Source: Bryobacterales bacterium
GTDB taxonomy: Bacteria; Acidobacteriota; Terriglobia; Bryobacterales; UBA6623
DNA: 64,000 nt
Reading direction: 5' to 3'
NCBI GenBank assembly: GCA_963422375.2
Contig: OY729428.2
Coordinates: 2,240,001-2,304,000 of the forward strand
This document shows, piece after piece, positions 27,487 to 64,000 of this stretch; positions within the stretch are counted from its first letter, which is position 1; every line of letters starts with the position of its first letter. The position numbers and the translations under genes are program-made. The notes beneath the pieces were generated by a model that was given only the letters and a program-made list of their open reading frames with translations, was not told where the DNA came from and searched no databases.

Positions 27487-28780
27487 TTCGCGCCCCGGGC
27501 ACCCTAGCCCGCAGTCGTAGGCAGCGTCGCGGTCTTGAAGGCGATGTTCCCGAGCCGAGAAGTCTTTCTCTTCGGGGCGCCCCTGTTCGGACGGGCTGTG
27601 CGGACTGCCACGCGCCGGGGACAGCGGAGCCGGCAACGGGTCGGCCTGTATGGGGGGATTCAGTGCGCTGCCCATTATGCGCCTCCAATGTCGCCGTCCG
27701 ATTCGATGACGATCACTTGTCCGGGATAGAATCTGATCGGCTTGGTCTCGCTCGGGCCCAACGGTCCCGGACCGGATGGCAGCTGTAGCTGTCGAACGAG
27801 ATCCGGGAATAGACCGCCCATCACGCAGGCACGCATCCACCCGCGGCAGGTTGGACCGCGGAAGCATGCGTCGAACGCTCTGGACACGCAACGCCGGAAC
27901 TCCACCTGGTTGCCCAGCACCTCCCTGCAGGGAAGGGGGCCATACCCAGCGATTCTCAATTTGGGCATTTGGGGATTTCCAGAGTGTCTGAGAAAGGTGT
28001 CGAAGGCAGTCTGGCACTTGACTTTTCCTAGCGGAATTTGTGAGCTAAGGTGAATGCCTCATGTCCTGGACTCGCTGCTGAGCGCCTTCCGCGAGACGGC
28101 CGCCGGCCGGCCCGACCGGCGCGACGGTCGCAGCAACAAGCGCTACGAGGTCAGCGACGCCGCCGGTTGCGCCCTGGCCTGCTTCTTCACCCAGTGCGAG
28201 TCGTATGGAGCGGGACGGCTCCCGCTGCAACTGCCGGACCCTGTTCGGCGCGGGCCGCATCCCCTGCGACAACCGGATCCGCAACTTGCTCGACGACCTC
28301 GACCCGGCCGCGTTCGACCCGCCGTTCCGGCCGTGCCTCGCAACCGTGGCCGCGCGGGGCGCGCTCGAGCCCTTCCAGCGCCTCGACGAGCGCCTGCCGG
28401 CGGCTCCGGACGGCGTCCGGTTCCACCGCTCCGACAGGGTGCATTGCCCGCAGTGCTCGGTGCGGCGCGCCGGCAGCGAGCGCCGGCCGCATCACTTCCA
28501 CGCCATGGTCGCGGCCACCGCGGTGGCCGACGGCCACGCCACCGTCCTGCCGCTGATGCCCGAGTTCGCGTGCCCGCAGCAGGACGCGGCCGCGACCCGC
28601 GCCGACATGAGCGAGAACGAGCGCAAGCGGGACTGCGAGCGCAACGCTGCCAAGCGCTGGCTCGCCGCTCAGGGCGCCTGGCTGCAGGCCTGCCGCCCCG
28701 TCCTGCCGGGCGACGACCGGTACTGCTGCCAGCCGCTCTGCGCGGCCGCCGCGGCCGCCGGCACGGACTTCATCTTGGAA

Positions 28781-29813
28781 CCTGATTACCCACAAGACTC
28801 AGCCAAGGCTAGGAGGCGGTAAGGCATGGGCGGGGTGCGCACGGAGGCGTGGAGCAGGCGGGGGACCAGCGCCTGCAGATTGTAGCGGCGGTTGAAGCGG
28901 TAGCGGAACTCGGCGAGGTACCGCGGCAGGTGCTTGCCGTCGAGCGCATGGCAGGTTCCCGCCAGGGACTGCTTGACGTTCGCCAGCATCGTGCTGACCC
29001 GGACGAAGCGGGAATCCGCGCAGCTCCGCTTCCCGCCTCCGGTGACGGTCGGCACGTGCTCGCAGCCGGCGCCGGCCACGCCCCGCAAGCAGGCCGGGCC
29101 GTCGGAATGCACCTTCGTGCCGGGCTGCAAGTGCCGCCCGGCCCACGCTGCCAGCGTCTTCTGGCGGAAGCCCGCCACGCCGCTCATGCGCATCCTTGCC
29201 GGCTGGCCGGCGGCGGTGACCTGCACGGCGGCCACGAACGGCGTCTTGCCCGCCGCGCCGCGACCGCGCTTGCCGCCGCTCCGCTCCCCGCCCCAGCAGG
29301 CGTCGTCCACTTGCACGATGCCGTGCAGCGGCACGCGCTCGTCGCGATCCTTCATCCCTTGCAAGAGCTTGTGCTTCATCTTCCAGGCCGTGTTCCGGCT
29401 GACGCCCGGCTGACGCGCCAGTTCCAGCGACGAAACGCCGTGCTTGCCCTGCGTCAGCAGGTGGAGCGCCAGGAACCGGACGGTCAGCGGCAGCTGGGTG
29501 GCGGCGAAGATCGTGCCGGCGACGAGGGAGGTCCGGCGGTGGCAGGCATGGCACTGCCAGAGCTTGCGGGAGCGGATGCGGCAGTGCCGTCGGGAGCCGC
29601 ACTCCGGGCAGCGCAAGCCGTCCGGCCAGCGGGCGTTGAAGACGGCCTGCTCGCATGGCCCCTCGCTGCCGTAGCGCTGCAGGAACTTGCCCGGGCTGAG
29701 TCCCTTCTGGAATTGCACGCGATTGCGTTTCAGCTGCTATCCCCTTTCCTATCAGAGATTTCCGACCTCTTTCAATATAGCATATCCTCGGCTGACGTTC
29801 GTTGGTAATCAGG
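28781..29813 (-). mobile_element. IS1595-family element with CCTGATT ends; transposase 28786-29733 (eroded)
   Basis: Imperfect 28-bp IR beginning CCTGATTACC; Zn ribbon CPEC..CHAC, VDDA, SDG, YLAEF.YRFNRR; 8-bp flanks TCTTGGAA / TCCGGGTA sit at the TSD position but are degenerate. Confidence 0.92.
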
Positions 29814-31059
29814 TCCGGGTATGCAAGCCCGGATCCCGCAAGCACTTGTACGAGGTGCCGGAGAGCCGGCGGGCGAGCGGCGCGGTGCGCTCGACCGGCT
29901 GGCTGCCGCGACGCCCTGCAGGGCACTTGGCTCGAGTACGCCGTGGAGCGCGACGGCAAGCGCACCTGCGCCAGCAGCTTCTTCACCAGTCTCGCGGTCA
30001 GCGCGGACAACGCGGAGCGGATCGCGCGCGCCGGCCGGGCGCCCTGGAAGATCGAGAACGAGGGCTTCCACTGCCTGGCGCGGCACGGCCGCAACTGCAA
30101 GCGCAACTTCGGGCACGGCAAGGAAGGGCCGGCCAACGTGCCGGCCGTGCCGAACCCGTTCGCCTTCGCGCTCCGCGCCGTGGTGCAGTGCGTCTGCGCG
30201 CTGCGGCAGCAGTGCCGGCGCCAGCCGGTCACGCGCCGCGCCCTGTTCCAGGAGCTGTTCCAGGAGCTGCAGGTCGCGCTGCGCTGGTTCCGCTTCCCGG
30301 ACCGGCCGACGCTGCTGGCGGCGGTGCGCGACGGACGCGCGCCTCCGGGCTGCCAGGCGGCCGGGCGGCCGGGGCCTGGACTCGGCGCAGTTTCGTGCCG
30401 GCAGCGTCCGGCCAGCGGCCGACCGTCGCAGCCGGCTACCGCCGGGGTGCGTCCGGCCGCGGGCTCGGCACTCGGCGGACCCGCGACGCGGGCCGCGCCA
30501 CGGCCCTGCCCGCCGTCCGACGCTCCCGCACGGCGGCCTCGGGAGCGCAACCTCTCGGCCAACTTATTCACCTCATCCTCCGAAACAACGTTCACGCACC
30601 CCCTTGACGGCCAAATTTAGGGGAATTATATATCTGAGTGCCGACAACGCCATGGTCCGACTAGAACTGCTGTGAGCAGGGAGGTGGGTGTCGAGCTGGG
30701 GTCATGCGAGTGCGGCCGCGGCGGGCACAGAGGGGTGGGGTGTGGGATCGTATCTGAATCGAGCCTGCCAGCGGATTGGACGAGGAAGGGACTAGAGAGG
30801 CCGCCTCGCCTGCCCCGGTTGCCCCGGTGGAACCCGGTTGGCGGTGGCAGGGCACGCCTTGCAAGCCGCTTGCAGGCCCTGCGAGGGCCGAAGACAGCGG
30901 ATCCCCGGCGCTCGACGGCCTGCATGGACGGTCCGGACCGGACCGGGGTCGCGCCGGGGCATGCCGGATCCGGTGCGACCCTCGTACCGAGCGTGCAGCG
31001 CACCGAGCGTGAAGCGCGCGCCCGCAGCGGGCTGCCGCGCTCGGCGCGGCGGGCGCCGC

Positions 31060-32016
31060 TCAGGCCGCGACCGCGGCCTTGCCGGTCAGCTGCCGGCAGG
31101 TCAGCGTCCGGCCGACCAAGCCCCGCGCCATGCGCCGCATCCGTTCCGCCGTGTCGCAGTCGCGGTCGTTGCGCCGTCCCGCGAACTCCGTGAGGTAGCG
31201 GCCGAGATGACGGACGCTCATCCGGTGATAGGTTCCGTAGAGGCCGCGCTTGAACAGGGACCAAAACGACTCGATGCCGTTCGTATGCGCCGCCCCGCGC
31301 ACGTACTCGCCGCGGGAGTGCTTGACGGCTTCGTGCGGGAACTGCTCCATGCCGGCGCAGGCCGCCGCCTCGTCGGAGCGGACCTGCGCGCCCGGCGCGA
31401 CCCGGCCGCGCGCGAAGCCCTGCAGGTCGCCCTTGGCGGTGCCCGGCAGCGGCCGCGCGGCCACTGCGTTCGCGGCGCGGTCCCGCGCGCCCGCCACGGG
31501 CGTCTTGCCGACGGGCCCGCGCCCGGCGCGGGCCTTCTTCCTCTCGTGCTTGTTGCGCTCCTTGCCGCCGACGCAGGTCTCGTCCACCTCCACCGGGCCG
31601 GCGAACAGGCCCCGATCCCGCTCCCGGCACGCGCGGATGCGGTGCGCCAGGTGCCAGGCCGACTTCCGGCTGATGCCTAGGTCGCGGTGCAGCTTCATGC
31701 TCGAGACGCCCTTGATGCCGGTGGTCAGCAGGAACAGGGCGACGGCCCGGGTGCGGTAGCCGAGCTCGGTGTCGGCCGTCACGCTGCCGGTGCGCACGGA
31801 AAAGCGCTTGCCGCAGCCGCGGCAACGGTACGGCATCGAAGGGTGGGCCGCGCCGGACTGCACGCTGGAGCCGCCGCAGCGGGGGCACGCGGGACCGTCC
31901 GGCCAGCGCATGGATGCGAACCACTTTTCCGCGGATTCGTCATCGGGGAACATGGCGATCACTTCGATCAATGTGATGCCTTTACGGAACCACTTTCCGG
32001 GACCTTATTTCTTCAT
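31060..32016 (-). pseudogene. IS1595-family transposase, copy A, ochre at codon 4
   Basis: ATG AAG AAA TAA (stop 32005-32007) where sister copies read MKQNG/MKQKG; CPRC..CRGC, VEVDET, SDE, HTNGIESFWS motifs. Confidence 0.88.
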
Positions 32017-32039
32017 TTACGGTATCCCCTACTGGAACT

Positions 32040-32069
32040 ATTCTACCAAGAAACACCACAGAATGTCAA
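32040..32069 (-). promoter_or_regulatory. Sigma70 promoter of the IS1595 transposase
   Basis: TTGACA-N18-TAGAAT with TG extension; same layout at 61686-61715 (+) and in copy C. Confidence 0.7.
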
Positions 32070-32158
32070 CGGAAAGTCGGAAGAAATATGAAATCTTATA
32101 ATGGCTTGATAATTTGCCTACTCGATTCCATCGGCACTCAGATATATAATTCCCAAAT

Positions 32159-33252: not shown

Positions 33253-33264
33253 TTCGTTGCCGGC

Positions 33265-37334: not shown

Positions 37335-38264
37335 TCAGAACCTGTCAATCGCCTTGAGAATACTCGTTGAAAACTTCCCTGCTCCAGCGTTTTGAGTCGG
37401 GACCATCGGATCCGGTTCGCCTCGCATGATCGCCATCATGCGGACCTCCACCTTGACAGGCTGGATGAGGGCGGATCCGGACCGCTGATTCGCTCCTGCC
37501 CCGATCCTCCACATCAACGCCCCTACGACGTAGATGTCCGTCCACGGCCCGAGCCTTCCATCACCTACCTGCTCGGGTGCAACGAGACCCTCGGTGTAGG
37601 GCGCGAAGGACCTTGTCCGGTCTGCAACCGCTTGCTTCGCCGCGCCGAAGTCAATCAGAACCGGCCGGTCCGCTTCCCGTGCCCCGGTTCGCCGAATCAG
37701 AATGTTGCTCGGCTTGATGTCGCGGTGCGGGACTCCCGCGGCATGGACCCGCTTGAGTGCGGCAAGAAGCGGAAGCACGACTGCGAGCATCTCACGCTGG
37801 TCGAACGGTGCGCCGGACGATTCGCGCCTCGCGAGCAACGCCCCGAGAGAATGTCCGTCCACGTAGTCCATCACGATGTACGCCGTGCCGTTCTCGCGAA
37901 AAACGTCGCGGCAAATCACGATGTTCGAAACGTCCCTGAAGTCCATCAGTCGCTTGGATTCTTCAAGGAATCGGCGCAATCCGTCGCCGAAATCGCTCCT
38001 TAGATTGGCGCTCCGTGGAGGCACCGAGTCGCCATCGCGAACGGCAAGGTCGCTCGGGAGCTACTCCTTGATCGCGACGCTGAAGCCGAGATCCCCATGG
38101 CGTGCCTCGTGAACGATCCCGAAGCCGCCCCGCCCGAAATGTCCCTGAACCACGCATGGTCCGTGCTGAAGCGGGGCTCTCACGGGAAGCGCAGCGCGTT
38201 CCCTGTTCTCTCCGGGCATCGAAAGAGGCCTACCTTCTGGAGAGGTCCCCACCGAATCTCTCAC
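37335..38264 (-). pseudogene. Hanks-type Ser/Thr protein kinase pseudogene
   Basis: GRGGFGIV, VAIKE* (in-frame TAG 38061-38063), HRDIKPSN, LIDFGAA, APEQ, WTDIY; ends early next to an AT-rich patch. Confidence 0.88.
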
Positions 38265-38351
38265 GTACGGGCTGACCGCATAGGTGTCCGCAGATCACGT
38301 AGGCCGTCGCCATTTTGCGCTCTTCGATCGCGCCGGCTGCGGCCGGAGGGG

Positions 38352-39296
38352 TCACGCCTTCGGGTGCGCCGCGTCGTATACCTTCATCAGCTGCTCCATC
38401 GAGAGCTGCGTGTATTTCTGGGTGGTGGACAGGCTCGCGTGGCCCAGCAGCTCTTGGATCGCCCTCAGGTCCGCCCCTTCGGACAGCAGATGCGTTGCGA
38501 AGGCGTGTCGCAGCGAATGCGGATGCAGCGACGGGTCGCCGATGACCGCCTTGGCGTGTTTCTTCAGGATCAGGCCCACGCTGCGCCCGGTCAGGCGTCG
38601 CAGCTGCCCGCCCCATCGGTGGAGGAAAAGCGCCCTCATGCTCGCGGGGGGCTCGAGTTTCGCCCTTGCCTCCAGGTAGCGGTCCAGCGCCTCCGAGGCC
38701 CGAGAGCCGAAGGGCACCTGTCGCTCCTTGCGACCCTTCCCGCGAACCCGGATCCAACGATCGCTTCTGTCTAGGTCGTTCACGTCGAGACCGACCAGCT
38801 CGCTCACCCGCAGCCCAGCACCGTAAAGCAGCTCGAATATAACGCGGTCGCGCAAGATCTTGTCTGGAAAGCGGTCGTCCTCGCCGGTGCATGCGACTTG
38901 GTCCACCAGCTGGTTGGCCTCCTCCGGATTCATGACCGCCGGCAGCTTCTTCGGGATTCTCGGAGTAGCGACGCTGCGGGCGGGATTTCGCGCCAGACCC
39001 TCCTCACGGACTAGGTAGTCGAAGAACACGCGCAGGGCGGACAGCCTACGGGCCAGCGTCGCCGTGGTCAGGCCGCGATTCCGGTCCTGAGCCATGAACT
39101 CGCGGACGGTGAGACGAGTGATCTCGTCGACGCTCGGGGTCGGCCCTCCCGCCTTCGCGACGTGCTCGGCGAAGAGAGCGAGATCCTTCCCGTAGTTGCG
39201 AATGGTGTTGCCGGAGGCGTTGCGCAGCCGCAGGGAGTCTAGGAACCGCCCCGCGGCGGCCTGCACGTTCCGGTCAGGCTGCCGCTCGGTCGGCAT
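38352..39296 (-). CDS. xerC: Tyrosine recombinase XerC
   Basis: GLRVSEL, GKGRKER, HPHSLRHAFATHLL, LLGH, TTQKYT; downstream of trmFO. Confidence 0.88.
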   Translation of the reverse strand: MPTERQPDRNVQAAAGRFLDSLRLRNASGNTIRNYGKDLALFAEHVAKAGGPTPSVDEITRLTVREFMAQDRNRGLTTATLARRLSALRVFFDYLVREEGLARNPARSVATPRIPKKLPAVMNPEEANQLVDQVACTGEDDRFPDKILRDRVIFELLYGAGLRVSELVGLDVNDLDRSDRWIRVRGKGRKERQVPFGSRASEALDRYLEARAKLEPPASMRALFLHRWGGQLRRLTGRSVGLILKKHAKAVIGDPSLHPHSLRHAFATHLLSEGADLRAIQELLGHASLSTTQKYTQLSMEQLMKVYDAAHPKA

Positions 39297-40626
39297 GCAG
39301 AAACCCGTCGAGCGCTTCGAGGCCGAGCTCGCACTGCCTAGCCCGCCGCTCACGCTTTCGCCGCTTGAACTGCCTTCGCAACTCCTCGGAAGCCGGCGGC
39401 AACAGGTCGAACGTAATGTTGGCCGGCTGGTAGTTGGCAGGGCTCGCACTCGAGATGTAGTGGCACAGCGAGCCGTGGGCCGTCTCGCGAGGCCAGACTC
39501 GAGGGGACTTCGAGCGCGCCAGCAGCGCCGCGTTCCAGCCCGCGACCAAGCCAGTCGCCATGGACTCCACGTAGCCCTCGACACCCGAGACTTGCCCGGC
39601 GAACAGCACGTTGGGGTGCTGCTTCCACTGCAGAGTCGGCAGCAGCAGAGCCGGGGCATTGATATACGTGTTGCGGTGAATCTGCCCGTATCGCAGGAAC
39701 TCGGCCCGCTCCAAGCTCGGAATCATGCGCAGCAGCCGCTTCTGATCGCCGTACCTGAGGTGGTTCTGGAAGCCCACGAGGTTGTACGATTCGGCCCTCG
39801 CGTCTTCCTGGCGAAGCTGCACGACCGCGTAGGCAGATGCGCCAGTACGCGGATCCCGCAAGCCGACTGGCTTCATGGGACCGAACCGCAGGGTGTCGCG
39901 GCCCCGGCGGGCCAGCTCCTCGATCGGCAGGCAGCCCTCGAAGTAGTTGGGGTTGTCGAAGTCCGGCGAGAGGTGCTGCTCGGCCGCGAGCAGCGCGTCC
40001 AAGAAGCGGTCGTACCGCTCGCGCGTGAACGGACAGTTGACGTAGTCCGCGCCTCCGTCCAAAGAGTGGCCGTACCGGGACGCTCGATACGCAACCGACA
40101 TGTCGATGGAGTCCGCATCGACGATCGGGCTGATGGCGTCGTGGAAGTACAGCCGGTCGCTGCCCGTCCGCCGGGCGATCGCCTCGGCCAGGGAGTCGCT
40201 CGTCAGCGGACCGCTCGCCACGATCCAGATCTCGTCCGTTCCGGCAGGCAGGTCGGTGATCTCGCCGCGCTCGACTCGAATCAAGGGTTCCGACTCGATA
40301 GCGGCGGTCAGTCCTCGAGCGAAAACGGCGCGGTCGACCGTGAGCGCGGTACCGCCCGGGATCCTCGCCTCCGCCGCGACCCGCATGGAAACGGAGCCCA
40401 TCCTGCGCAGCTCTTCCTTGAGGAGCCACGGCGCGCTGCCGCGCGTCTCGGTCTTGAGCGAGTTGCTGCAAACGAGCTCGCCCAGATCGTCGGTCCGATG
40501 GGCCGGCGTCCGCCGGCCCGGGCGCATCTCGTGGAGTACGACCGGAAGGCCGCACCGAGCGACCTGCGCGGCGGCTTCAGGGCCGGCTAGGCCCGCACCG
40601 ATCACGTGAATGGGCTTCCGTGCCAC
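39274..40626 (-). CDS. trmFO: Folate/FAD-dependent tRNA (uracil-54) methyltransferase
   Basis: IGAGLAG, ELVCSNS, DAISPIV, YFEGCLPIE, FGPMKPVGL, HRNTY, GVEGYVES. Confidence 0.95.
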   Translation of the reverse strand: MARKPIHVIGAGLAGPEAAAQVARCGLPVVLHEMRPGRRTPAHRTDDLGELVCSNSLKTETRGSAPWLLKEELRRMGSVSMRVAAEARIPGGTALTVDRAVFARGLTAAIESEPLIRVERGEITDLPAGTDEIWIVASGPLTSDSLAEAIARRTGSDRLYFHDAISPIVDADSIDMSVAYRASRYGHSLDGGADYVNCPFTRERYDRFLDALLAAEQHLSPDFDNPNYFEGCLPIEELARRGRDTLRFGPMKPVGLRDPRTGASAYAVVQLRQEDARAESYNLVGFQNHLRYGDQKRLLRMIPSLERAEFLRYGQIHRNTYINAPALLLPTLQWKQHPNVLFAGQVSGVEGYVESMATGLVAGWNAALLARSKSPRVWPRETAHGSLCHYISSASPANYQPANITFDLLPPASEELRRQFKRRKRERRARQCELGLEALDGFLHADRAAA

Positions 40627-40795
40627 TTGTGCGCAGGTGAGTCCGGCCCGGTCGCGCGGGAACCATCTCCCGCTAGAACATTCTAGCGAGCGCCGGTTTC
40701 CTCTGGCCAGGAATTCCCGGGCGACTCGGGCCGCGACGTTGCGCGGTCAGCTGCAGGAAGGCGCTGGCGCGTCCGGCGCACAGTCATCGGCCGAG

Positions 40796-48733: not shown

Positions 48734-48750
48734 AGGCCGCCGCTACAGTC

Positions 48751-49917: not shown

Positions 49918-49926
49918 GGATGAACG

Positions 49927-51977: not shown

Positions 51978-52087
51978 CGGGCGGATTCGCGCATAGCGGA
52001 ATCCCCTGCCCGGCCGGCCCGGTGCCGCGCCGGATCGGCAGGACGGGTGCGTCTTCCATGCGCCCTCCTGTCGTAAGCTTTCACTTC

Positions 52088-53359
52088 GTGCCGGCCCGCT
52101 ATCGCACGCTCGGGTTCCTGGTCGTCCTGATGATGATCACGTACATCGACAGGGTCTGCTTCAGCACCACCGCGAGCCCCATGGCCGAGGAGCTGGATCT
52201 GTCCCTCGAGCAGGTGGGGCTAGCCGGCTCGCTGTTCGTTCTCGGCTACGTTCTCTTCGAGATTCCCGGCGGCTGGCTGGCGGACCGGTTCGGTGCCCGG
52301 CGGATGCTGGCCCGCATCGTGATCTGGTGGTCGGCCTTCACCGGGATCTCTTGGAGCCTGGCCTCGCTAGCCACGATTCGCTTCCTGTTCGGATGCGGCG
52401 AGGCGGGAGCGTTTCCCGGCGCGACCTCGGCCATCGCGCGATGGTTCCCTCGCAACGAACTGGCCCGCGCGCAGTCCCTCGTGATGTTCGGAAGCCGGAT
52501 CGGATTCGCCATGACCTCGTGGATCGTGATCGCGCTGATGGCGAGCTACGGATGGCGGGGCGTCTACTGGATCTTCGCGGTGCTGGGGCTGATCTGGGCT
52601 CTGGCGTGGACATCGTGGTTCCGCGACGCCCCGGAAGAGCACGGAGCGGTAGGGCCCCGCGAGGCCTCCCTGATCCTCGAGCACCGCGCGGCCTCGAGCG
52701 GGCGCACGAAGGTGCCCGTCGGCGCCCTGCTCGCGAGTCGCAACGTGTGGGCTCTGTGCGGCATGTACTCCGGGTACACCTGGGGCCTCTACTTCTACAT
52801 CCAGTGGCTGCCGACCTACCTCGAGCAGGAACGGAACCTGGACCTTCCGGAGGTGGGCCCGACGGCGGCGGCGGTGCTGCTGTCGGGAGCCGTTGCGAAT
52901 CTAGCCGGCGGGTGGCTGAGCGACTACCTGGCCCCAAGACATGGCATCCGCGTCGCACGCCGGCTTCCCGCGATCACGGGCCTTCTGGCGGCGGGGGCGT
53001 TCCTCGCGCTGGCCGCCACCCTCGAGAGCAATCTCTCGGCGCTGGCGTGCCTAGGCCTGAGCTTCGGCTGCGCCGAGCTGATCCTGGCAGTAACCTGGGC
53101 TACCTGCCTCGACATCGGGGGATCGGCCGCCGGCGTAGTGTCCGGGACGATGAACTCGCTCGGACAGGTCGGCGGCGCGCTCGCGCCCTGGCTGATCGGA
53201 CTGATGGTGGACCGCACGGGAAGCTGGGAGATCCCCCTTCTTGTGTCCGCTGGCTACTACGTCATCAGCGCCCTGCTCTGGATGGGAATCGACCCCGCGA
53301 AGTGCCTGCGACTTGGAGCGGCGTCGGCTCCAGGCGCCTCCGCACCAGCGACAAGCTGA
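52088..53359 (+). CDS. MFS transporter, ACS (sugar-acid) family-like (start uncertain, 52022-52088)
   Basis: ITYIDR, EIPGGWLADRFGAR, RFLFGCGEAGAFP, SGTMNS. Confidence 0.88.
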   Translation: MPARYRTLGFLVVLMMITYIDRVCFSTTASPMAEELDLSLEQVGLAGSLFVLGYVLFEIPGGWLADRFGARRMLARIVIWWSAFTGISWSLASLATIRFLFGCGEAGAFPGATSAIARWFPRNELARAQSLVMFGSRIGFAMTSWIVIALMASYGWRGVYWIFAVLGLIWALAWTSWFRDAPEEHGAVGPREASLILEHRAASSGRTKVPVGALLASRNVWALCGMYSGYTWGLYFYIQWLPTYLEQERNLDLPEVGPTAAAVLLSGAVANLAGGWLSDYLAPRHGIRVARRLPAITGLLAAGAFLALAATLESNLSALACLGLSFGCAELILAVTWATCLDIGGSAAGVVSGTMNSLGQVGGALAPWLIGLMVDRTGSWEIPLLVSAGYYVISALLWMGIDPAKCLRLGAASAPGASAPATS

Positions 53360-53712
53360 TGCCGCCTGCGCGATTCGAAGACGCCCCGTACAGGAGGGCG
53401 CCCGACGAGGCCGATGTGAACCTGCGGGCGCACTTCGACTCGCTGAGCGAGGAGAAGCTGGCCCGGCTGGACCTCGATTGGGGGGATGCCGCTCTGATGG
53501 AGTGGGACGGAGACTTCCGCGACGACGGCTGCCTGATGATGGTCTGCTGCGACCGGGATGTCGGGATCAACGAATACCGGCGAGTGCTCGCGGAATTCCT
53601 CGAGTTCAGGAAGGCGCCAGCGACTGATCCGGAGCGGGTCCTCACGCGCCGGGCCGCTCCGACTGGAGAGAGTAGACTGATTCCTGGCGTTCGCTACCGC
53701 GGGTCGGGTTAG
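53359..53712 (+). CDS. Hypothetical acidic protein
   Basis: TGATG-coupled to the MFS gene; MEWDGDFRDDGCLMMVCC. Confidence 0.6.
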   Translation: MPPARFEDAPYRRAPDEADVNLRAHFDSLSEEKLARLDLDWGDAALMEWDGDFRDDGCLMMVCCDRDVGINEYRRVLAEFLEFRKAPATDPERVLTRRAAPTGESRLIPGVRYRGSG

Positions 53713-53749
53713 GACGCGCGGGCCCAAATGGAGTCTCCCACTACCCCTG

Positions 53750-55690
53750 ATGCGCGCAGCCCTTCCCATGACAAGACTTCGGTTTCCCTTCCCTGCCGGA
53801 CTGCTGCAGCTGCTCACGCTCCTCTGCCTTCAAGTCCTGCCCGCAAGCGGGCAGATCTACGACCCCGTCCAATGGACCCTGGAACTCGAAGCCGAGCAAG
53901 CGCCTCCGGGCAGCAAGGTGCTGGCGCGCCTGACAGCGGAGATCGAAGACAGCTGGCACATCTATTCGTCCACCACGCCTGCCGGAATCCCGTTGGACAT
54001 AGCCGTCGCCGCATCCGAAGCGGTTGCTGGCTGGCAGGCGTTCCAGCCCGACCCGGAGGTCGTGTTCGACCCCAACTTCCAACAGAACGTCGAATGGTAC
54101 TCCAGCGAGCCCGAGTTCCTCATTGAGCTGGAACTGTCCCCGGAAGCCTCCGGCCGGGTCGATGTCGAGGTCGCGGTCGGATACGGCGCGTGCGACCCGC
54201 GCCAGTGCCTGCCCCCCAAGCGCAAGAGCGCGAGCGCGCAGCTCGACATCGTTCGGAGCGCCATGGCATCGGCGCACGAAGTGCCGGACAGCTACCAGCC
54301 GGCCGCACGTAATCAGCGAGGCCAGCCCGCCTCCGCCCAGGCCGCCGTCGCAGCGGTCCTCGCGGAGACGCCAGCGCAATTCGAGTCACCGGAACAAGGG
54401 CTGTTCCGCTTCGCCTTGGTCGCGCTCGGGTTCGGTTTCGTCGCAGTCCTGACCCCGTGCGTGTTCCCGATGATCCCGATCTACATGGGCAGCTTCCTTG
54501 GCGGGGGCGCACGCCCCTGGCGGGCGGTGCTGCGGCAGGCCGGAACGTTCTGCCTCGGAGTCATCCTGCTCTTCACGGGGATCGGCGGGGCGCTCAGCGC
54601 ATTCCTCGGGCCGTTCGGACTAGGCCAGATCGGCTCCAGCCTGTGGGTCAACCTTTTCATCGCCGCCGTGATGTTCGCGTTCGGCGCGAGCATGCTCGGG
54701 GCGTTCGAGCTCTCGCTGCCCAGCCGCTGGACCACCGGGGCCAGCACCCGCTCGACCGGCAGCGGCCCCGTCGCCACGCTGATGCTGAGCCTCGTGTTCA
54801 CGCTGGCCTCCTTCGCATGCACCGGTCCGTTTGTCGGTTCGCTGCTGGCCGGGTCAATCGGGGAGGGGGGGATGGCGTACCCGGTGCTAGGCATGGGGGT
54901 GTTCGCGACCGGCCTCTCGGCCCCCTTCTTCGTCCTAGCGTTGTTCCCGAAGCTGATGGACCGGCTGCCTCGGAGCGGGGGCTGGCTTGCGATGTCCAAG
55001 CGGGCCGCAGGGCTAGTGCTTCTCGCAGTCGGCCTGAAGTATCTGGGCATCGCCGACCGCCTAGTCGGGTGGGACCTGCTGACGAGGGAACGGTTCCTGG
55101 CGATCTGGATCGTGCTGTTCGGCACTGCCGCCCTGTACCTGTGGGGCGTTCTCCGCATGGAGCACGACGGGCCGACGGAAGGGATCGGTCTCGTGCGGCT
55201 CGGCACCGGCGGGGCGTTTCTGGCCCTCGCCATCAGCCTGGTCCCCGGCATGTTCGGCGGCCGCCTGGGAGAGCTCGACGCGTACGTCCCGGAAGGGGCG
55301 GCCGCAGGCCTGGCGGCTCCGGGAGGAGGCGGCCTCTCCTGGATCAAGAACGATTACGACGGGGCGAGCGCCAAGGCGACCGCCGAGGGCAAGACGCTGC
55401 TCGTCAGCTTCACGGGGTACTCCTGCTCCAACTGCAAATGGATGAAGGCCAACATGTTCACCAGGCCGGAGGTCGGCGAGCTGCTCGAGAAGACGGTCCT
55501 GGTCGAGCTCTACACCGACGGATTCGACGAAGCAAGCGAGCGTCACCAAGAGATGCAAGTCGAACGTTTCCGGTCGTCCAGCACCCCGTTCTACGCCCTG
55601 ATGCGTCCGGACGGCACAGTGGCGGCCACGTTCTCCGGCCAGACAAGGGACGTCTCGGAGTTCCGCAGCTTCCTGCAAAGCGCGTCCTGA
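53750..55690 (+). CDS. dsbD: DsbD-type thiol:disulfide interchange protein
   Basis: N-domain CDPRQCLPP, TM LTPCVFPMIP and FACTGP, thioredoxin CSNC. Confidence 0.85.
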   Translation: MRAALPMTRLRFPFPAGLLQLLTLLCLQVLPASGQIYDPVQWTLELEAEQAPPGSKVLARLTAEIEDSWHIYSSTTPAGIPLDIAVAASEAVAGWQAFQPDPEVVFDPNFQQNVEWYSSEPEFLIELELSPEASGRVDVEVAVGYGACDPRQCLPPKRKSASAQLDIVRSAMASAHEVPDSYQPAARNQRGQPASAQAAVAAVLAETPAQFESPEQGLFRFALVALGFGFVAVLTPCVFPMIPIYMGSFLGGGARPWRAVLRQAGTFCLGVILLFTGIGGALSAFLGPFGLGQIGSSLWVNLFIAAVMFAFGASMLGAFELSLPSRWTTGASTRSTGSGPVATLMLSLVFTLASFACTGPFVGSLLAGSIGEGGMAYPVLGMGVFATGLSAPFFVLALFPKLMDRLPRSGGWLAMSKRAAGLVLLAVGLKYLGIADRLVGWDLLTRERFLAIWIVLFGTAALYLWGVLRMEHDGPTEGIGLVRLGTGGAFLALAISLVPGMFGGRLGELDAYVPEGAAAGLAAPGGGGLSWIKNDYDGASAKATAEGKTLLVSFTGYSCSNCKWMKANMFTRPEVGELLEKTVLVELYTDGFDEASERHQEMQVERFRSSSTPFYALMRPDGTVAATFSGQTRDVSEFRSFLQSAS

Positions 55691-56208
55691 TGACCGCTGG
55701 GACGACCTCGGCGATGCGACCGGAGCGCGAAGGGACCAGCGTCCCCAGCCCCAGGCGGCGCGGCCTGACCTGCCTAGCCGCAGCGGCGCTTCTCGCGAAC
55801 GCGCAGGCACCCCCAAGCCAGCACGAGGAGTCGGGGGCCGACAGCGGCCAGCGCCTCTTCGAAAGCTACTGCTCAGCCTGCCACCAATACGACCGGCAAG
55901 GCATGGGCGAGGCGCCCCCGCTCGACAGCTCGCCGTGGGTCGCGGGCCCGCCCGAGCGCTTGATCCGGATCGTGCTCCACGGCGTCGAAGGCCGCATCGA
56001 GATCGAGGGCAAGGTTTATGACCGGGAAATGCCTGGTTTCGGCGGCACGCTCTCGGACCGCCAGACAGCCGCGCTAGCCACCTACGCACGGTCGAGATTC
56101 GGGGCTGGCCCGGAGCCCGTCCCGGTGGCGGAAGTCCGGCGGGTCCGCCAAGCCCACGCCGGCAGGACCCGCTACTGGCCGGCCTCGGAACTGCTTGAGC
56201 TGCGCTAG
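55690..56208 (+). CDS. Monoheme cytochrome c
   Basis: CSACH, PPL, distal MPGF; TGATG-coupled to dsbD. Confidence 0.88.
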   Translation: MTAGTTSAMRPEREGTSVPSPRRRGLTCLAAAALLANAQAPPSQHEESGADSGQRLFESYCSACHQYDRQGMGEAPPLDSSPWVAGPPERLIRIVLHGVEGRIEIEGKVYDREMPGFGGTLSDRQTAALATYARSRFGAGPEPVPVAEVRRVRQAHAGRTRYWPASELLELR

Positions 56209-57299
56209 TCGATGTGCTTGCGGCCCAGTCCGAACTCGTTGCCGATCCGCACGAGCTTCCCGTCCCTCATGTGGACTTCCACGAACTTCGAACCGCTGAC
56301 AGGCTGACCGGTCTCGTCCTTCAGCGTCGCCACCAGCTGCTTGGTCTTCACATCGAACACGTCGGGCGTATGGCTCCAAGCGTACTTGCCGTCCAAGCTG
56401 AAGGTCACCCAGCCGTGTCCGACCTGAGACAGCTCGACATGGCCCTTGGGGGCCGGCGGCATTCTCGTCGAGTCGAAGATGAAGAGCTTCCGGCCCTTCT
56501 GGTCGCTGATCCACAGCTCGGTCTCGTCGGGCGTCAGGCCGACGCCGTGCGTGCGGTGCGGGATCTTGTCCTCGCCGGCGAAGACCCGGTGGATCGCCTG
56601 GCCGGCCTTCAGGTCCACGACGTCGAAACCGACGTGGTTGCCCAAGCAGACGTACGCGTAGTCCTCCCTGCTGTCGATCGTGAACGGAAAGATGCCGCGC
56701 TCCCCGACGTCATTGACCTGCATGATCATCTCGTCCGTGCCTGTGTCGAAGACCGACAGCGTGGTCGTCGTCCCGAGGTAGACCTTGGTGCCGGAGAGGT
56801 TGACGATGCTGTTGTGCGCTTGGAGCCCGACCTTGAGCCTCTTGATGATCTTGCCCGTCTCGCCGTCGACGACGAGAAATCCGCTGTCCTCGCCCTTGTA
56901 CCACCATCCGGTCGGGACGTAAATCTTCTTTCCGTCAAGCGTCACCGAGGATCGGTCGCACCCCGCCTCGTAGAGCTGCTCCCAGACCACCTCCTCGCTC
57001 TCGATGTCGAACCGCCCCAGCCGGTGGTTGGTCGATGAGTAGTAGACGCTGTGCTTCTCGAGGTTCCCGGCAAACCCACGCAGACCCTCCTCGAAGACCG
57101 GCATGTCGATCCGGCGCACGAACTTGTGAGCGTTGTCGATGTCGAAGATGAGGATGCCGGGCTTGGAGCGCCCCTCCTTCTGTGCGCCGTCGGGCATGCT
57201 CATGTAGAGGTACCGCCTGACCTCTCCTGAGCCCGCCCCGGCCAGCAGGGGCAATGCAATGCAAAGGGCGAGGGCTAGGGAGAGCACGAGGCGTCGCAT
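56205..57299 (-). CDS. Secreted YncE-like beta-propeller protein
   Basis: Signal peptide; repeats such as SVTLDGKKIYV, LTPDETELWI, FSLDGKYAW. Confidence 0.75.
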   Translation of the reverse strand: MRRLVLSLALALCIALPLLAGAGSGEVRRYLYMSMPDGAQKEGRSKPGILIFDIDNAHKFVRRIDMPVFEEGLRGFAGNLEKHSVYYSSTNHRLGRFDIESEEVVWEQLYEAGCDRSSVTLDGKKIYVPTGWWYKGEDSGFLVVDGETGKIIKRLKVGLQAHNSIVNLSGTKVYLGTTTTLSVFDTGTDEMIMQVNDVGERGIFPFTIDSREDYAYVCLGNHVGFDVVDLKAGQAIHRVFAGEDKIPHRTHGVGLTPDETELWISDQKGRKLFIFDSTRMPPAPKGHVELSQVGHGWVTFSLDGKYAWSHTPDVFDVKTKQLVATLKDETGQPVSGSKFVEVHMRDGKLVRIGNEFGLGRKHID

Positions 57300-57485
57300 G
57301 GCACAATCTTACCTGCCCGCAGGCTGGAGGTCAAGGCTCCCCTGCCCTCGATTCTTTCGTCCGTCCCACCCATGTCGTGCAAGCAAGTCTTTTCTTGACA
57401 ACGGTTTATGCGAGCATTGCAGAGGTGGATTTTCAGCTTCCGAAGCCCTTGCATCCCAACACCGGCCCATGAGTCCAACTCTCAG

Positions 57486-57589
57486 TGCGCACTTCGGCCG
57501 CACACAAATGACCCGAGCTAGACGCCGACCTTCCCGATCAGAGCAGTTCTAGCCGAATATGGCGTTGTCGGCCCTCAAATATAATTTCC
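57486..57589 (+). mobile_element. Degenerate solo right end of the GGGAATTAT-type IS1595 element
   Basis: Matches the reverse complement of 61774-61880 with substitutions. Confidence 0.75.
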
Positions 57590-58122: not shown

Positions 58123-58297
58123 TCCGCTGGCTCCGGCGAACTAAGTGGTGCTTGTGACAGAACGAGCAAGCCCTTAGTTTCCAGGCGGTTGCAGCAGGTC
58201 CATGGGACGAAGATCGGGCCGATCCGGGGCGGCTTGCGCGACAATCTTCGTTGAGGAACCCCCCGTGAGGACCGTTCAGGAGAACCAGCTCACCCTT

Positions 58298-58630: not shown

Positions 58631-59747
58631 CGACGGGACCGCGCCACGAACGCAGTGGCCGCGCGGCCGCTGCCGGGCACCGCCAAGGGCGACCTGCAGG
58701 GCTTCGCGCGCGCCCGCGTCGCGCCGGGCGCGCAGCTCCGCTCCGACGAGGCGGCGGCCTACGCCGGCATGGCGGAGTTCCCGCACGAAGCTGTCAGGCA
58801 CTCCGGCGGCGAGTACGTGCGCGGGGCGGCGCATACGAACGGCATCGAATCGTTTTGGTCCCTGTTCAAGCGCGGCCTGTACGGCACCTATCACCGGATG
58901 AGCGTCCGTCATCTCGGCCGCTACCTCACGGAGTTCGCGGGACGGTGCAACGACCGCGACTGCGACACGGCGGAACGGATGCGGCGCATGGCGCGGGGCC
59001 TGGTCGGCCGGACGCTGACCTACCGGCAGCTGACCGGCAAGGCCGCGGTCGCGGCCTGAGCGGCGCCCGCCGCGCTGAGCGCGGCAGCCCGCTGCGGGCG
59101 CGCTCTTCACGCTCGGTGCGCTGCACGCTCGGTACGAGGGGCGCACCGGATGCGGAATGCCCCGGCGCGACCCCGGTCCGGACCGTCCATGCAGGCCGTC
59201 GAGCGCCGGGGATCCGCTGTCTTCGGCCCTCGCAGGGCCTGCAAGCGGCTTGCAAGGCGTGCCCTGCCACCGCCAACCGGGTTCCGCCGGGGCATGCGAG
59301 GCGGCCTCTCTAGTCCGTTCCTCGTCAAGTCCGCTGGCAGGCTCGATTCAGATACGATCCCACCCCACTCCACCCCTCTGTGCCCGCCGCGGCCGCACTC
59401 GCATGACCCCAGCTCGACACCCACCTCCCTGCTCACAGCAGTTCTAGTCGGACATGGCGTTGTCGGCACTCAGATATATAGTGCCCGTGACAAAACTCGT
59501 ATGCCCTTGACAACAAAGGCGTTAGGTCCAATCTCTCAAGGCGAAGATTTCGTTGGAATGCTACGACTAATCCGCAATCCTGGCGATTCTGGGTAGAGCG
59601 CGGAAATCTTCGCGATGGGCGTCTGAGCAACTTCCGACCTTGGGCCCTATATGTTGTGTTTGGAGATCCATCCGACATCAGGATGTAGTATGAAATGCTG
59701 ATCAGGCCAGAATTCAGGGGTTTTGTCACAAGCACTACATAATTCCC
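58631..59747 (+). mobile_element. IS1595-family copy B (5'-truncated; transposase remnant ends 59059)
   Basis: Near-identical to copy A 3' half; terminal IR split by a MITE and completed by ATTCCC at 59742-59747. Confidence 0.9.
59481..59735. mobile_element. 255-bp MITE with ISDol1-like ends
   Basis: Ends GTGCCCGTGACAAAAC and GTTTTGTCACAAGCAC; flanks TATATA / TACATA. Confidence 0.85.
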
Positions 59748-59968
59748 AAATCAATCAGCTGGTCGTGCAGGCAGGGCACGCGCTGGCGGGGTACGAGGAA
59801 GGCGATCCGCTGAAGGCGCGGTGCGACTCGTTCGTGGTGGGAACGAGCGTGCATTACCCGACGGACGTAAGTCTGCTGTGGGACGCGTTGCGCTGCCTGA
59901 TTCGCTCTATTGCGCCGCTGTGCAAGGGGCGCGGTATCGCGGGCTGGCGGCAGAGCGCGCAGATGCTC

Positions 59969-61600: not shown

Positions 61601-61773
61601 GGGAATTATATATCTGAGTGCCGAGGCAACCGATTTTGCAAATTATCAGTCCATAAATTAATTTCATATTTCTTCCGGAGATCTGTTGACATTCGGTGGA
61701 TTATTTTGGTAGAATAGTTCCAATATATGAGGTCGTCTATGAAGCAGAAAGGTCCCGGGAAGTGGTTTCGTAA
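61601..61773 (+). mobile_element. IS1595-family copy D, left end only (interrupted by copy C)
   Basis: 24-bp IR, promoter 61686-61715, ATG 61739 MKQKGPGKWFRK. Confidence 0.9.
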
Positions 61774-63170
61774 GGGAATTATATATCTGAGTGCCGACAA
61801 CGCCATGTCCGACGAGAACTGCTCTGATCAGGGAGGTCGGCGTCTAGCTCGGGTCATTCGAATGCGGCCGCGGTAGGCACAGCAAGGTGGGATCGTATCT
61901 GAATCGAGCCTGCCAGCGGATGTGACGAGGAAGGGACTAGAGAGGCCGTCTCGCATGCCCCGGTGGAACCCGGTTGGCGGTGGCAGGGCACCCCTTGCAA
62001 GCCGATTGCAGGCCCTGCGAGGACCGAAGACAGCGGATCCCCTGCGCTCGACGGCCTGCATGGATGGTCCGGGCCGGACTCGGGTCGCACCGGGCCATGC
62101 CGGATCCGGCGCGCCCCTCGCACCGAGCGTGAAGCGCATCGAGCGTGAAGAGTGCGCCCGCAGCGGGCTGCGGCGCTCGGCTCGGAGGGCGCCGCTCAGG
62201 CCGCGACCGCGGCCTTGCCGGTCAGCTGCCGGTAGGTCAGCGTCTTGCCGACCAAGCCCCGCGCCATGCGCCGCATCCGTTCCGCCGTGTCGCAGTCGCG
62301 GTCGTTGCACCGTCCCGCGAACTCCGTCAGGTAGCGACCCGGATGACGGACGCTCATCCGGTGATAGGTTCCGTACAGGCCGCGCTTGAACAGGGACCAA
62401 AACGACTCGATGCCGTTCGTATGCGCCGCCCCGCGCACGAAGCCCTGCAGGTCGCCCTTGGCGGTGCCCGGCAGCGGCCGCGCGGCCACTGCGTTCGTGG
62501 CGCGGTCCCGCGCCCCCGCCACCGGGGTCTTGCCGACGGGCCCGCGCCCGGCGCGGGCCTTCTTCCTCTCGTGCTTGTTGCGTTCCTTCTTGTTGCGCTC
62601 CTTGCCGCCGACGCAGGTCTCGTCCACCTCCGCCGGGCCGGCGAACAGGCCCTGATCGCGCTCCCGGCACGCCCGGATGCGGTGCGCGAGGTGCCAGGCC
62701 GACTTCCGGCTGACGCCCGGGTCGCGGTGCAGCTTCATGCTCGAGACGCCCTTGAGGCCGGTGGTCAGCAGGAACAGGGCCACGGCCCGGGTGCGGTAGC
62801 CGAGGCTGCCGGTGCGCACGGAAAAGCGCTTGCCGCAGCCGCGGCAACGGTACGGCATCGAAGGGTGGGCCGTGCCGGACTGCACGCTGGAGCCGCGGCA
62901 GTGGGGGCACGCGGGACCGTCCGGCCAGCGCATGGAGGCGAACCACTTTTCCGCGGATTCGTTATCGCGGAACATGGCGATCACGTCAATCAGAGTGAGG
63001 CCTTTACGAAACCACTCCCCGGGACCATTCTGCTTCATAGACGACCTCATATACTGGAACTATTCTATCAAGAAAATCCACAGACTGTCAATAGATATCC
63101 GGAAGAAATATCAAATTAATTTATGGATTGATAACTTGCCAAATCGGTTGCCTCGGCACTCAGATATATA
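61774..63170 (-). mobile_element. IS1595-family copy C; transposase 62196-63038 with in-frame deletions
   Basis: IR at 61774; second IR cut after TATATA at 63170; lacks the SDE segment present in copies A and B. Confidence 0.92.
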
Positions 63171-64000
63171 GTGCTTTTGACAGAACGTCGAAGCCCTTAG
63201 TTCCCAAGCGTTTGCAGCAGATCCGTGGGACAAAGATCGGGTCGATCCGAGCCGGCTTGCGCATTTCCGGGGCATTGTGCGACAATCTTCGTTGAGGAAC
63301 CGCCCGTGAGGACAGTTCAGGAGATCCAGCTCACCCTTGGCCGGACTGCAATCGAGGATATCGATCCCGACGTCCGTTCCCGCGACGATATCCCGGCCAT
63401 CTTGCTAGGAATACAATCCATCTATCGCACCGAGGAGTTGCGGGACAGGGTTTTCGGACTGCTCGAGAGCCGTATCCTCGGCCTCGGCGAGAGTAGCGGG
63501 AACGGCGGGAACGGAAGCGATCCTTCCGCAGGCGAGTCCGGCAGGATCAACCCTGCCCTCGGTCGTCCCGGCATGCAGCTGTGGAACATTCTCGTCCCGG
63601 GCCTGCTCAAGCAGGGATTGAATTGCGACTGCGGCCGCGTGACGGAGCTGGCGAACAAGCACGCGGACGTCCGGCGCTTCCTCGGTCTGAACGCGACGCT
63701 CGACGAGCGGGTCTTCAGCTACCGGACAGTCAACCGGAATCCGAAGCTTCTCACGCCCGACCTCCTCGCGGAAATCAATCAGCTGGCCGTGCGGGAAGGG
63801 CACGCGCTGGCGGGGTGCGAGGAAGGCGATCCGCTGAAGGCGCGGTGCGACTCTTTCGCGGTGGAAACGAACGTGCATTGCCCGACGGACGTGAGTCTCC
63901 TATGGGACGCGTTGCGCTGCCTGGTTCGCTCTATTGCGCCGCTGTGCAAGCGGCGCGGCATCGCCGGCTGGCGGCAGAGCGCGCGGCTGCCGAAGACGCT
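63171..64000 (+). mobile_element. ISDol1-like (ISNCY) element Y; transposase from GTG 63306 runs off the window
   Basis: End GTGCTTTTGACAGAAC; SRDDIPAILLGIQ, GRPGMQLWNIL, ELANKH, CDSF.VETNVH.PTD. Confidence 0.85.

What the first reader, a model, noticed from the sequence alone, without database searches (positions are those of the whole stretch)
27947..64000. Directional A:T->G:C erosion across four IS types: possible RIP-like or biased-conversion inactivation of repeats
Seen in sister-copy comparisons. ISDol1-like X (59825-59857) reads DSFVVGTSVHY and Y (63849-63881) reads DSFAVETNVHC. Against the implied DSFVVETNVHY, all four deviations are A->G or T->C (GAA>GGA, AAC>AGC, GTG>GCG, TAC>TGC), two private to each copy. 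By hand, about 13 of about 20 differences in the 220-nt overlap are A/G or T/C. ISNCY copy 1 vs copy 2 shows C/Y, R/W twice, P/L twice, A/V, G/D, R/K, A/T, T/M and R/Q. IS1595 copies show AAAC/AAAY, LTC/LTY, GPA/GPV and DPG/DLG. Against family motifs recalled from knowledge: VDETC (Y), DDAC (Y), GTCH (Y), DNRIR (Q), PANVPAVPN (L), shared between copies where copies exist. Few stops are gained, as expected because these changes cannot create stops. The changed bases mostly sit in CAG/CTG or NAC/GTN contexts, while AT-rich IS ends remain AT-rich. Housekeeping genes nearby look normal. Most bacteria mutate toward AT, so the direction is unusual. Inference: (a) a repeat-targeted mutagenic defence, a mirror image of fungal RIP; (b) GC-biased gene conversion among copies through T:G->C:G repair; or (c) a genome-wide mutator spectrum such as mismatch-repair loss, visible only in unselected DNA. 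No candidate enzyme is in this window.
Basis: partly seen in the sequence, partly recalled or inferred. Interest (0 to 1): 0.88.

Follow-up and report, generated by a model that had tools for sequence, protein, structure and literature searches.

The report
GC-biased swapping erodes transposon copies
In this bacterium, about a hundred copies of each jumping gene appear to swap single DNA letters, and letters that raise GC content spread even when they look set to wreck the gene, which offers a way to study GC-biased gene conversion inside one bacterial genome.

Summary
The erosion is real, but mostly not private mutation of each copy. I polarised 223 copies of four IS families against proteins from relatives. 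Damaging A:T>G:C alleles reach at least 10% of copies at 78 of 619 sites, G:C>A:T at 5 of 793; rare alleles are balanced (53 vs 86). The bias is strand-symmetric and strongest after a pyrimidine (CC[A] 39/91), and A:T>C:G also rises (31/656). Common alleles assort almost freely beyond 10-25 nt. Sister copies switch between them 17-fold faster than other sites change, mostly one site at a time. Read-derived contigs carry the same alleles (r=0.91). Best reading (0.55): micro-patch gene conversion among copies with GC-biased mismatch resolution. mutS, mutL, mutY, an orphan vsr and a family-5 UDG are present. Against it: recent switches show no direction (9 vs 8), and single-copy IS relics show the signature at about 4-fold. 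Codon third positions carry the same context pattern, so a genome-wide mutational bias remains a live rival (0.25). A RIP-like defence is unlikely. One relative shows an A:T>C:G-only version. My look-ups found no earlier scan note of this on other DNA.

The parts
27946..28774 (+).
   Evidence: BLAST family coordinates; 36 near-full copies genome-wide; no NCBIfam family, weak Pfam DDE_Tnp_1_assoc below cut-off
28783..29815 (-). IS1595 family element 'B' (97 near-full copies); start codon changed to CTG in this copy; carries DDAC and GTCH
   Evidence: NF033547 176.9 bits, cut-off 75
29814..30620 (+). Long DDE element copy 1, 3' part
30620..32156 (-). IS1595 family element 'A' (100 near-full copies, recombining subfamilies); VDETC
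   Evidence: NF033547 158 bits
32873..34996 (-). Long DDE element copy 2 (full copy 33262-34996 plus an internal fragment from 32873)
57475..57583 (+). IS1595 'A' end fragment
58148..58297 (+).
58634..59486 (+). IS1595 'A' 3' half
59748..59966 (+). Internal fragment X of the NF033593 element (DSFVVGTSVHY)
61601..61779 (+). IS1595 'A' 5' fragment
61774..63170 (-). IS1595 'A' copy with internal deletions; VDETC
63161..64000 (+). Copy Y of the NF033593 element (16 near-full copies); runs past the window end
   Evidence: NF033593 361.9 bits, cut-off 325
38100..57300 (.). Control: 12 single-copy housekeeping genes; proteins normal, synonymous T before GG the lowest of 21 genomes

Best explanation
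Each high-copy IS family behaves as a recombining population inside one genome. Shown: copies exchange sequence in very short patches, mostly one polymorphic site at a time and sometimes 4-113 nt. Shown: alleles that turn A:T into G:C rise to high copy frequency while C:G>T:A alleles stay rare, whatever the damage to the transposase. Inferred: the exchange goes through brief heteroduplexes between copies. Inferred: T:G (and A:G or A:C) mismatches in them are resolved somewhat more often towards C:G, most strongly where T is followed by a purine (TGG, TAG). Inferred and untested: short-patch enzymes do this (orphan Vsr and/or family-5 UDG for T:G, MutY for A:G). Inferred: the same repair bias, acting on allelic recombination or replication errors, shapes third codon positions genome-wide. 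The result is that nearly every copy carries radical substitutions, as a by-product and not a targeted defence.
For: (1) Polarised spectrum: alleles at 10% or more, A:T>G:C 78/619 vs G:C>A:T 5/793; rare alleles 53 vs 86; same direction in all four families (p=3.7e-18 for common vs rare). (2) C>T alleles: 72 singletons but 1 at 4 copies to 88%, against 41 and 18 for GC-neutral changes (p=1.2e-6). The two reciprocal transitions are pushed in opposite directions. (3) Strand-symmetric: A>G 30/283, T>C 48/336, p=0.18. (4) Near linkage equilibrium: IS1595B r2 0.195 at 3 nt or less, 0.07 to 25 nt, 0.015-0.018 beyond 100 nt, expectation 0.01. (5) Shared 8-12-bp duplications occur in all four combinations, e.g. 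70/13/10/4. (6) 12 sister pairs with unrelated flanks differ at 124/1456 common-polymorphic sites vs 64/13173 others (17.5-fold). Spacing at 15 and 40 nt fits one-site events and rejects mean tracts of 5 nt or more at 15 nt, with a small excess within 5 nt. Linked double changes switch as units. (7) Subfamily mosaics: in one IS1595A region 72 isolated and 20 multi-site swaps against 23 third-base cells. (8) The same 7-mer shows 0/83 at one site and 26/28 at another; no donor elsewhere in the genome and no hairpin explains which. (9) 63 low-copy tile pairs show no hot spot: 0.0134 vs 0.0116 differences per site. (10) Contrast rises with copy number: 23% vs 1.3% in genes with more than 12 copies (copies not independent); 10% vs 2.5% in single-copy segments. 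(11) A copy-population model with bias beats an unbiased one by 80-229 lnL units at four ages. (12) Contexts that spread in IS rank with those depleted at third positions, rho=-0.79, p=8e-4, 14 contexts; the third-position pattern is strand-symmetric, r=0.999 over 8 contexts.
Against: Direction in recent switches is not biased: 9 gains vs 8 losses in 5 nested trios (p=0.81) and 213 vs 224 in 29 loose trios. The fitted bias (grid edge, s=0.3) predicts about 1.9:1; the trios are few or poorly rooted. Single-copy IS relics show the signature too (26/256 vs 27/1092, including one housekeeping gene), which needs either a multi-copy past or a mutational component. All 12 scored CCC[A] sites are common (rare-allele sites were left out of that count), which looks like a hot spot. 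Diverged subfamilies share the A>G alleles even where flanks differ (61/158) but few A>C alleles; recurrent mutation explains this as well. Favoured sites are not more decoupled from their neighbours than others (p=0.36). The model gives each class one mutation rate. Vsr is in 30 of 31 genomes of the genus, so its presence does not explain why this genome is extreme. Among the four main families erosion does not track copy number (mean A>G frequency 0.110 at 28 copies, 0.057 at 97).
Confidence: 0.55

Rival explanations
1. Context-specific mutation bias plus unbiased shuffling. T>C before purines arises several-fold more often genome-wide (for example by misdirected Vsr- or UDG-type repair of replication errors). 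Unbiased micro-conversion and founder effects during transposition bursts then spread the alleles.
For: Single-copy relics show about 4-fold enrichment. Third positions and short intergenic DNA show a similar context order. CCC[A] is common at 12 of 12 scored sites. Recent switches are two-way. Alleles are shared across diverged subfamilies.
Against: Singletons show only 2.84 vs 2.37 per 1000 for favoured vs other contexts. Low-copy pairs allow about 2-fold and at most about 3-fold (my arithmetic); CCC[A/G] differs at 9 of 876 sites. 120 favoured-context sites have no derived copy while 64 have 4 or more. C>T alleles fail to rise in every context.
Confidence: 0.25
2. Unbiased conversion supplies the changes, and weak selection on base composition or DNA physics (favouring CG and GC steps) decides which become fixed in the cell population.
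For: Any fixation bias gives the same frequency spectrum. Common alleles preferentially create CG (68/695) and GC (59/598) steps. Third positions follow strand-symmetric rules.
Against: The favoured mismatch class differs between relatives: A:T>C:G 12/157 with A:T>G:C 0/148 in one G042 family, vs 13/135 A:T>G:C in this genome's IS1595B. That fits enzyme specificity better than selection for GC. W/S sites in favoured contexts switch about twice as fast as other sites (0.34 vs 0.165).
Confidence: 0.1
3. A repeat-targeted mutagenic defence, the mirror image of fungal RIP, actively writes A:T>G:C changes into repeated DNA.
For: Contrast is highest in high-copy families. 0 of 97, 0 of 84, 0 of 29 and 1 of 14 copies lack radical common alleles.
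Against: New private changes in repeats are balanced. Alleles are shared and revert. Transversions are included. The signature exists outside repeats. The three deaminase-domain genes resemble TadA, a dCMP deaminase/ComEB-type protein and RibD (all below cut-off on the partial stretches scanned). Degenerate copies still appear at new sites.
Confidence: 0.05
4. Assembly or polishing artefact: errors or allele mixing in repeats that unique DNA escapes.
For: Near-random assortment of alleles is what mixing would give. The best read set (X3) may be the source sample, and its technology is not on record. The two raw Illumina runs gave no test (0 and 5 reads laid).
Against: X3 contigs match unique flank with 0 differences over 1471 nt and carry both alleles. 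Allele shares correlate with the assembly at r=0.91 over 34 sites. Three of five single-copy-depth records match an assembled copy's difference count; one had no match and one could not be judged from the output. Sister pairs, nested clades and subfamily tracts have a biological structure.
Confidence: 0.03

Closest known systems
GC-biased gene conversion in bacteria (Lassalle et al. 2015, PMC4450053; I read passages and section 15)
   Same: W>S fixation bias linked to recombination; the paper notes that strong gBGC drives fixation of deleterious mutations and could enrich acquired AT-rich genes in GC.
   Different: That work compared recombining and non-recombining genes across strains. Here the evidence is an allele-frequency spectrum among paralogous copies in one genome, with a sequence context, near single-site patches and a mismatch class that differs between relatives. 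[quoted passage not shown]
Gene conversion among non-functional IS copies in Wolbachia wBm (as cited in PMC3196728, passages; original not read); conversion suggested for Sodalis SOPE IS (PMC3914690, passages)
   Same: Conversion acts among dead IS copies; mobilisation in trans is invoked.
   Different: Those cases describe high similarity among copies. Here copies stay 4-5% apart pairwise, alleles assort freely and there is a directional base bias.
Concerted evolution of rrn, tuf and nifH (as summarised in PMC8223754, passages)
   Same: Intragenomic non-reciprocal exchange in patches.
   Different: Reported patches are several hundred nt (50% co-conversion at 600 bp for tuf). Here most events change one site, and multi-site swaps span 4-113 nt.
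Very-short-patch repair by Vsr (PMC6116569, passages)
   Same: T:G is resolved to C:G; multispecific Vsr enzymes exist and CTGG/CCGG is a listed substrate. An intact vsr is present.
   Different: No methyltransferase lies next to this vsr. The context here is broader (T before a purine). A:T>C:G and C/G switches are not Vsr substrates. Activity is untested.
Fungal RIP (recalled, not read)
   Same: Repeats decay by a directional, context-dependent base change.
   Different: Opposite direction; alleles are shared and reversible instead of independently imposed; not confined to repeats.

Membership tests
GC-biased gene conversion | Non-reciprocal exchange between homologous copies | tested here: met
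   Four-gamete duplications, subfamily tracts and unit switching of double changes. Non-reciprocity is inferred from isolated patches between unrelated flanks.
GC-biased gene conversion | W>S derived alleles at higher frequency than S>W, with balanced or AT-biased new mutation | tested here: met
   78/619 vs 5/793 common; 53 vs 86 rare
GC-biased gene conversion | Independent of protein function and strand | tested here: met
   Radical changes at conserved residues; strand p=0.18
GC-biased gene conversion | Biased transmission per conversion event | tested here: inconclusive
   9 vs 8 in 5 nested trios; 213 vs 224 in 29 loose trios
GC-biased gene conversion | Stronger where recombination partners are more plentiful | tested here: inconclusive
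   18-fold in families with more than 12 copies vs about 4-fold in single- and low-copy relics, but no trend among the four main families
RIP-like repeat-induced mutation | Elevated, directional new point mutation in duplicated DNA | tested here: not met
   Singleton A>G 2.48 vs G>A 2.30 per 1000; low-copy duplicates show no context excess
RIP-like repeat-induced mutation | Confined to repeats | tested here: not met
   Same context at third positions and in single-copy relics
RIP-like repeat-induced mutation | Dedicated enzyme required | not testable with these tools
Mismatch-repair-deficient mutator | Loss of mutS/mutL (or nucS) | tested here: not met
   MutS 844 bits (cut-off 480), MutL 517 bits (cut-off 180), open frames without stops. 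NucS not found with PF01939 in a 96% complete genome. Expression is untested.
VSP repair (Vsr) | Intact vsr gene | tested here: met
   TIGR00632 154 bits, cut-off 97.85; aligns to E. coli Vsr 1cw0
VSP repair (Vsr) | Cognate C5-methyltransferase beside it and a matching motif | tested here: not met
   None within 4 kb each side; two relatives keep one at this locus; motif unknown
VSP repair (Vsr) | Nicks T:G mismatches in the favoured contexts | not testable with these tools
   Needs a biochemical assay
Diversity-generating retroelement or RNA-templated editing | Strand-specific adenine changes | tested here: not met
   Strand-symmetric. The two reverse transcriptases score best as group II intron type, below cut-off.

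The most novel reading that the evidence does not exclude
Bacteria of this genus run a mismatch-by-mismatch conversion between repeated sequences, in which short-patch repair enzymes act on brief heteroduplexes. Each lineage's enzyme preference (T:G>C:G before purines here, A>C in a relative) both drives its IS families into decay and sets its genome-wide GC content and dinucleotide signature. IS copy populations would then be a single-genome read-out of the conversion bias behind bacterial base composition.
Probability: 0.3. Interest if true: 0.88.

Novelty: new variant of a known kind. Interest (0 to 1): 0.72.

Why it matters
Whether gene conversion in bacteria is GC-biased is disputed (PMC4450053 for; a contrary report is cited in PMC8223754). 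A family of about 100 paralogous copies gives a polarised allele-frequency spectrum from one long-read genome, free of codon selection, with context resolution. The same count can be run on other IS-rich closed genomes and compared with repair-gene content and third-position composition, which makes the question directly testable. It also suggests a route by which IS families decay without a dedicated defence. A practical point: majority consensus sequences of such families are degenerate and hide the bias.

Tried and rejected
Majority-consensus polarisation shows no GC bias and is misleading here. Raw Illumina runs X8 and X9 gave no test: 0 and 5 reads laid, about 1 in 100 of each run read. 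X1 holds only a small share of the stretch (0.16); its contigs were laid at low depth and are weak support only. Templating by near-matching DNA elsewhere in the genome and hairpin correction: no difference between common and untouched favoured sites (p=0.47 and 0.98). Mismatch-specific decoupling from neighbours: not significant. Direction of recent switches: no bias seen, trios few or poorly rooted. An equilibrium frequency-spectrum fit gave B of about +2 to +5 for A>G and about -10 for C>T, but neutral classes also fitted negative, so only the contrast is meaningful. Vsr presence as the explanation of the difference between genomes: rejected, 30 of 31 have it. Relatives: G042, 70 of 73 copies. 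One family (25 copies) shows A>C 12/157, of which two lie in a divergent tail shared by 4 copies and one is nearly fixed. A second (32 copies) shows no clear bias and keeps linkage. A third (11 copies) is nearly uniform. G007, 20 of 31 copies: no common damaging alleles. G008, 20 of 47 copies: three, all A>C. Rows dropped: copies beyond a divergence threshold (16 of 100, 8 of 36, 2 of 16, 0 of 97); codons where no copy retains the outgroup residue; 6 of the 40 listed read sites (32215-32309), with 60 more not shown by the tool. Rfam found nothing in the window. Literature: ten searches. None of the listings described a GC-biased allele spectrum among IS copies; the library lacks most subscription papers and I read no supplements. 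One search used guessed habitat and taxon words and returned nothing. That family-5 UDG removes T from T:G and that MutY removes A from A:G is recalled; one search gave a listing only.
Full report
Setting. The window is C2:2240001-2304000 of a 6.0-Mb, 67% GC genome in three contigs. Its RecA is closest to a Bryobacterales (Acidobacteriota) genome at 87% identity. Repeats cover 12-20% of each contig. Median distance to consensus is 2.4-3.7%.

Checking the observation. X and Y differ at 18 of 219 nt, 12 by transitions. Against the majority consensus there is no GC-ward bias, but the consensus itself carries W>R, L>P and Y>C at conserved residues. I therefore polarised with transposases from relatives of the same genus. 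I kept codons where at least 75% of at least 6 distinct outgroup rows agree, and scored all 4897 possible non-synonymous single changes in 97, 84, 28 and 14 copies. Alleles in at least 10% of copies: A:T>G:C 78/619, A:T>C:G 31/656, C:G>G:C 15/1100, C:G>A:T 9/1070, A:T>T:A 2/659, C:G>T:A 5/793. Four of those five are at 85% or more and are probably family-specific. Rare alleles in the same order: 53, 50, 45, 26, 12, 86. So mutation input is roughly balanced and spread is biased (p=3.7e-18). The bias is strand-symmetric (p=0.18). It depends on the 5' base: CC[A] 39/91, CT[A] 8/14, AC[A] 6/29, GC[A] 8/119, GG[A] 1/64, GA[A] 0/60. Almost no copy escapes: the median load of radical common alleles is 6, 5, 16 and 4 per copy.

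Is it real? Logan contigs of run X3 match unique flank exactly and carry both alleles at IS sites. Their shares correlate with the assembly at r=0.91 over 34 sites, and three of five single-copy-depth records match an assembled copy's difference count. X3 may be the source sample, and the raw Illumina runs gave no coverage, so this is support and not proof.

The copies recombine in tiny patches. Common alleles are close to linkage equilibrium beyond 10-25 nt. Shared 8-12-bp duplications occur in all four combinations. IS1595A subfamilies exchange tracts of 4-113 nt and many single sites, more often than third bases appear. Twelve sister pairs at unrelated insertion sites differ 17.5-fold more often at common polymorphic sites than elsewhere. 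A simulation fits one-site events and rejects mean tracts of 5 nt or more at the 15-nt scale. Linked double changes switch as units, and in one trio a copy has reverted to the ancestral base. Published bacterial patches are several hundred nt (PMC8223754, passages).

Drive or mutation? For drive: C>T alleles stop at 1-3 copies (72 singletons, 15 at 2-3, 1 between 4 copies and 88%), while GC-neutral changes continue (41, 13, 18; p=1.2e-6). Identical 7-mers are either untouched or common. Singletons and 63 low-copy tile pairs show little context effect. A copy-population model with bias gains 80-229 lnL units, though the bias sits at the grid edge and mutation rate is uniform per class. Against drive, or neutral to it: recent switches show no direction (9 vs 8 in 5 nested trios; 213 vs 224 in 29 loose trios). 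All 12 scored CCC[A] sites are common. Diverged subfamilies share the A>G alleles. Fifteen single-copy segments, 14 IS relics and one housekeeping gene, show 26/256 favoured A>G against 27/1092 C>T. That is about 4-fold, against 18-fold in high-copy families. The relics may once have been multi-copy, but a mutational component of a few-fold cannot be excluded.

Beyond the repeats. In 2570 single-copy genes, third-position A/(A+G) after XY equals T/(T+C) before the reverse complement (r=0.999, 8 contexts). The contexts depleted there rank with those that spread in IS (rho=-0.79). Singleton rates predict about 0.5 for most contexts; observed values run from 0.03 to 0.38. In 12 orthologous genes, T before GG is 0.049 here and 0.097-0.319 in 20 relatives, while protein-level deviations are ordinary. 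One IS family of relative G042 (T before GG 0.289) shows the same free assortment but with A:T>C:G only (12/157, A:T>G:C 0/148). Other families in G042 and G007 show little or none, and G008 shows three A>C alleles.

Enzymes. MutS, MutL, MutS2, Nth, a family-4 UDG and Vsr pass curated cut-offs; MutY scores 279 against a cut-off of 286.5. RecA is present. A second UDG matches the Thermus enzyme 2d3y, which I recall as family 5. NucS was not found. The vsr sits at a core locus shared with several relatives; two of them keep a C5-methyltransferase there and this genome does not. Multispecific Vsr enzymes that cut CTGG/CCGG are known (PMC6116569, passages). Vsr is in 30 of 31 genomes of the genus, so presence alone does not explain the difference between genomes. 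The enzyme assignment is inference only.

Verdict. The pattern works like GC-biased gene conversion and meets most of its testable features; per-event bias remains unshown. It is not RIP-like and not mismatch-repair loss. Bacterial gBGC has been proposed from recombining genes (PMC4450053, passages and section 15), and IS conversion is known from Wolbachia (as cited in PMC3196728). In ten searches of an open-access library I found no description of a context-specific, near single-site, lineage-variable bias read from IS copy populations. I also read passages of PMC3205602 and PMC3914690; no supplements were read. Scores: new variant of a known kind; interest 0.72; best explanation 0.55.

Noticed in passing
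IS1595B, IS1595A and long DDE element copies genome-wide: Tandem duplications of 8-12 bp are shared by up to 17/97 and 14/28 copies. Among shared indels in IS1595B, insertions outnumber deletions 6 to 2, which may indicate insertion-biased conversion or transposon footprints.
   Followed up: partly
G000 C1:1182972-1184845 and C2:254886-256777: Two identical full-length copies of the NF033593 element with unrelated flanks share 13 rare variants. With near-identical IS1595B pairs, this suggests recent movement of degenerate copies, presumably in trans.
   Followed up: partly
L043:1285-1722 (G000 C2 near 2578600): Orphan vsr between a purine-salvage phosphorylase-like gene and a membrane-protein gene. 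The same neighbourhood occurs in at least 9 relatives, with a C5-methyltransferase in G034 and G017.
   Followed up: partly
L044, L045, L046 and others: A C5-methyltransferase has three copies with identical scores on three contigs; several other copies are broken or split.
   Followed up: no
genome-wide third codon positions: Synonymous composition is almost perfectly strand-symmetric by context (r=0.999), pointing to a DNA-level process and not translational selection. T before C is unusually tolerated (T/(T+C) 0.454 before CCC).
   Followed up: partly
window 13601-14060: A 440-460-bp repeat with about 22 near-full copies and no family hit for its ORFs; its copies also share polymorphisms.
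   Followed up: no
window 59991-61667: Very GC-rich relic of another transposase (Pfam Transposase_29) with few copies.
   Followed up: no
window 1550-3130: AAA plus PD-(D/E)XK-like gene with about 14 paralogous matches at about 69% identity.
   Followed up: no
window 37335-38774: Ser/Thr kinase gene that appears split, beside AT-rich DNA; another AT-rich island lies at about 32300-32850.
   Followed up: no
L210 and L211: Two group II intron-type reverse transcriptases, both below the curated cut-off.
   Followed up: partly
whole genome: GC skew is weak and disordered, consistent with frequent IS-mediated rearrangement.
   Followed up: no
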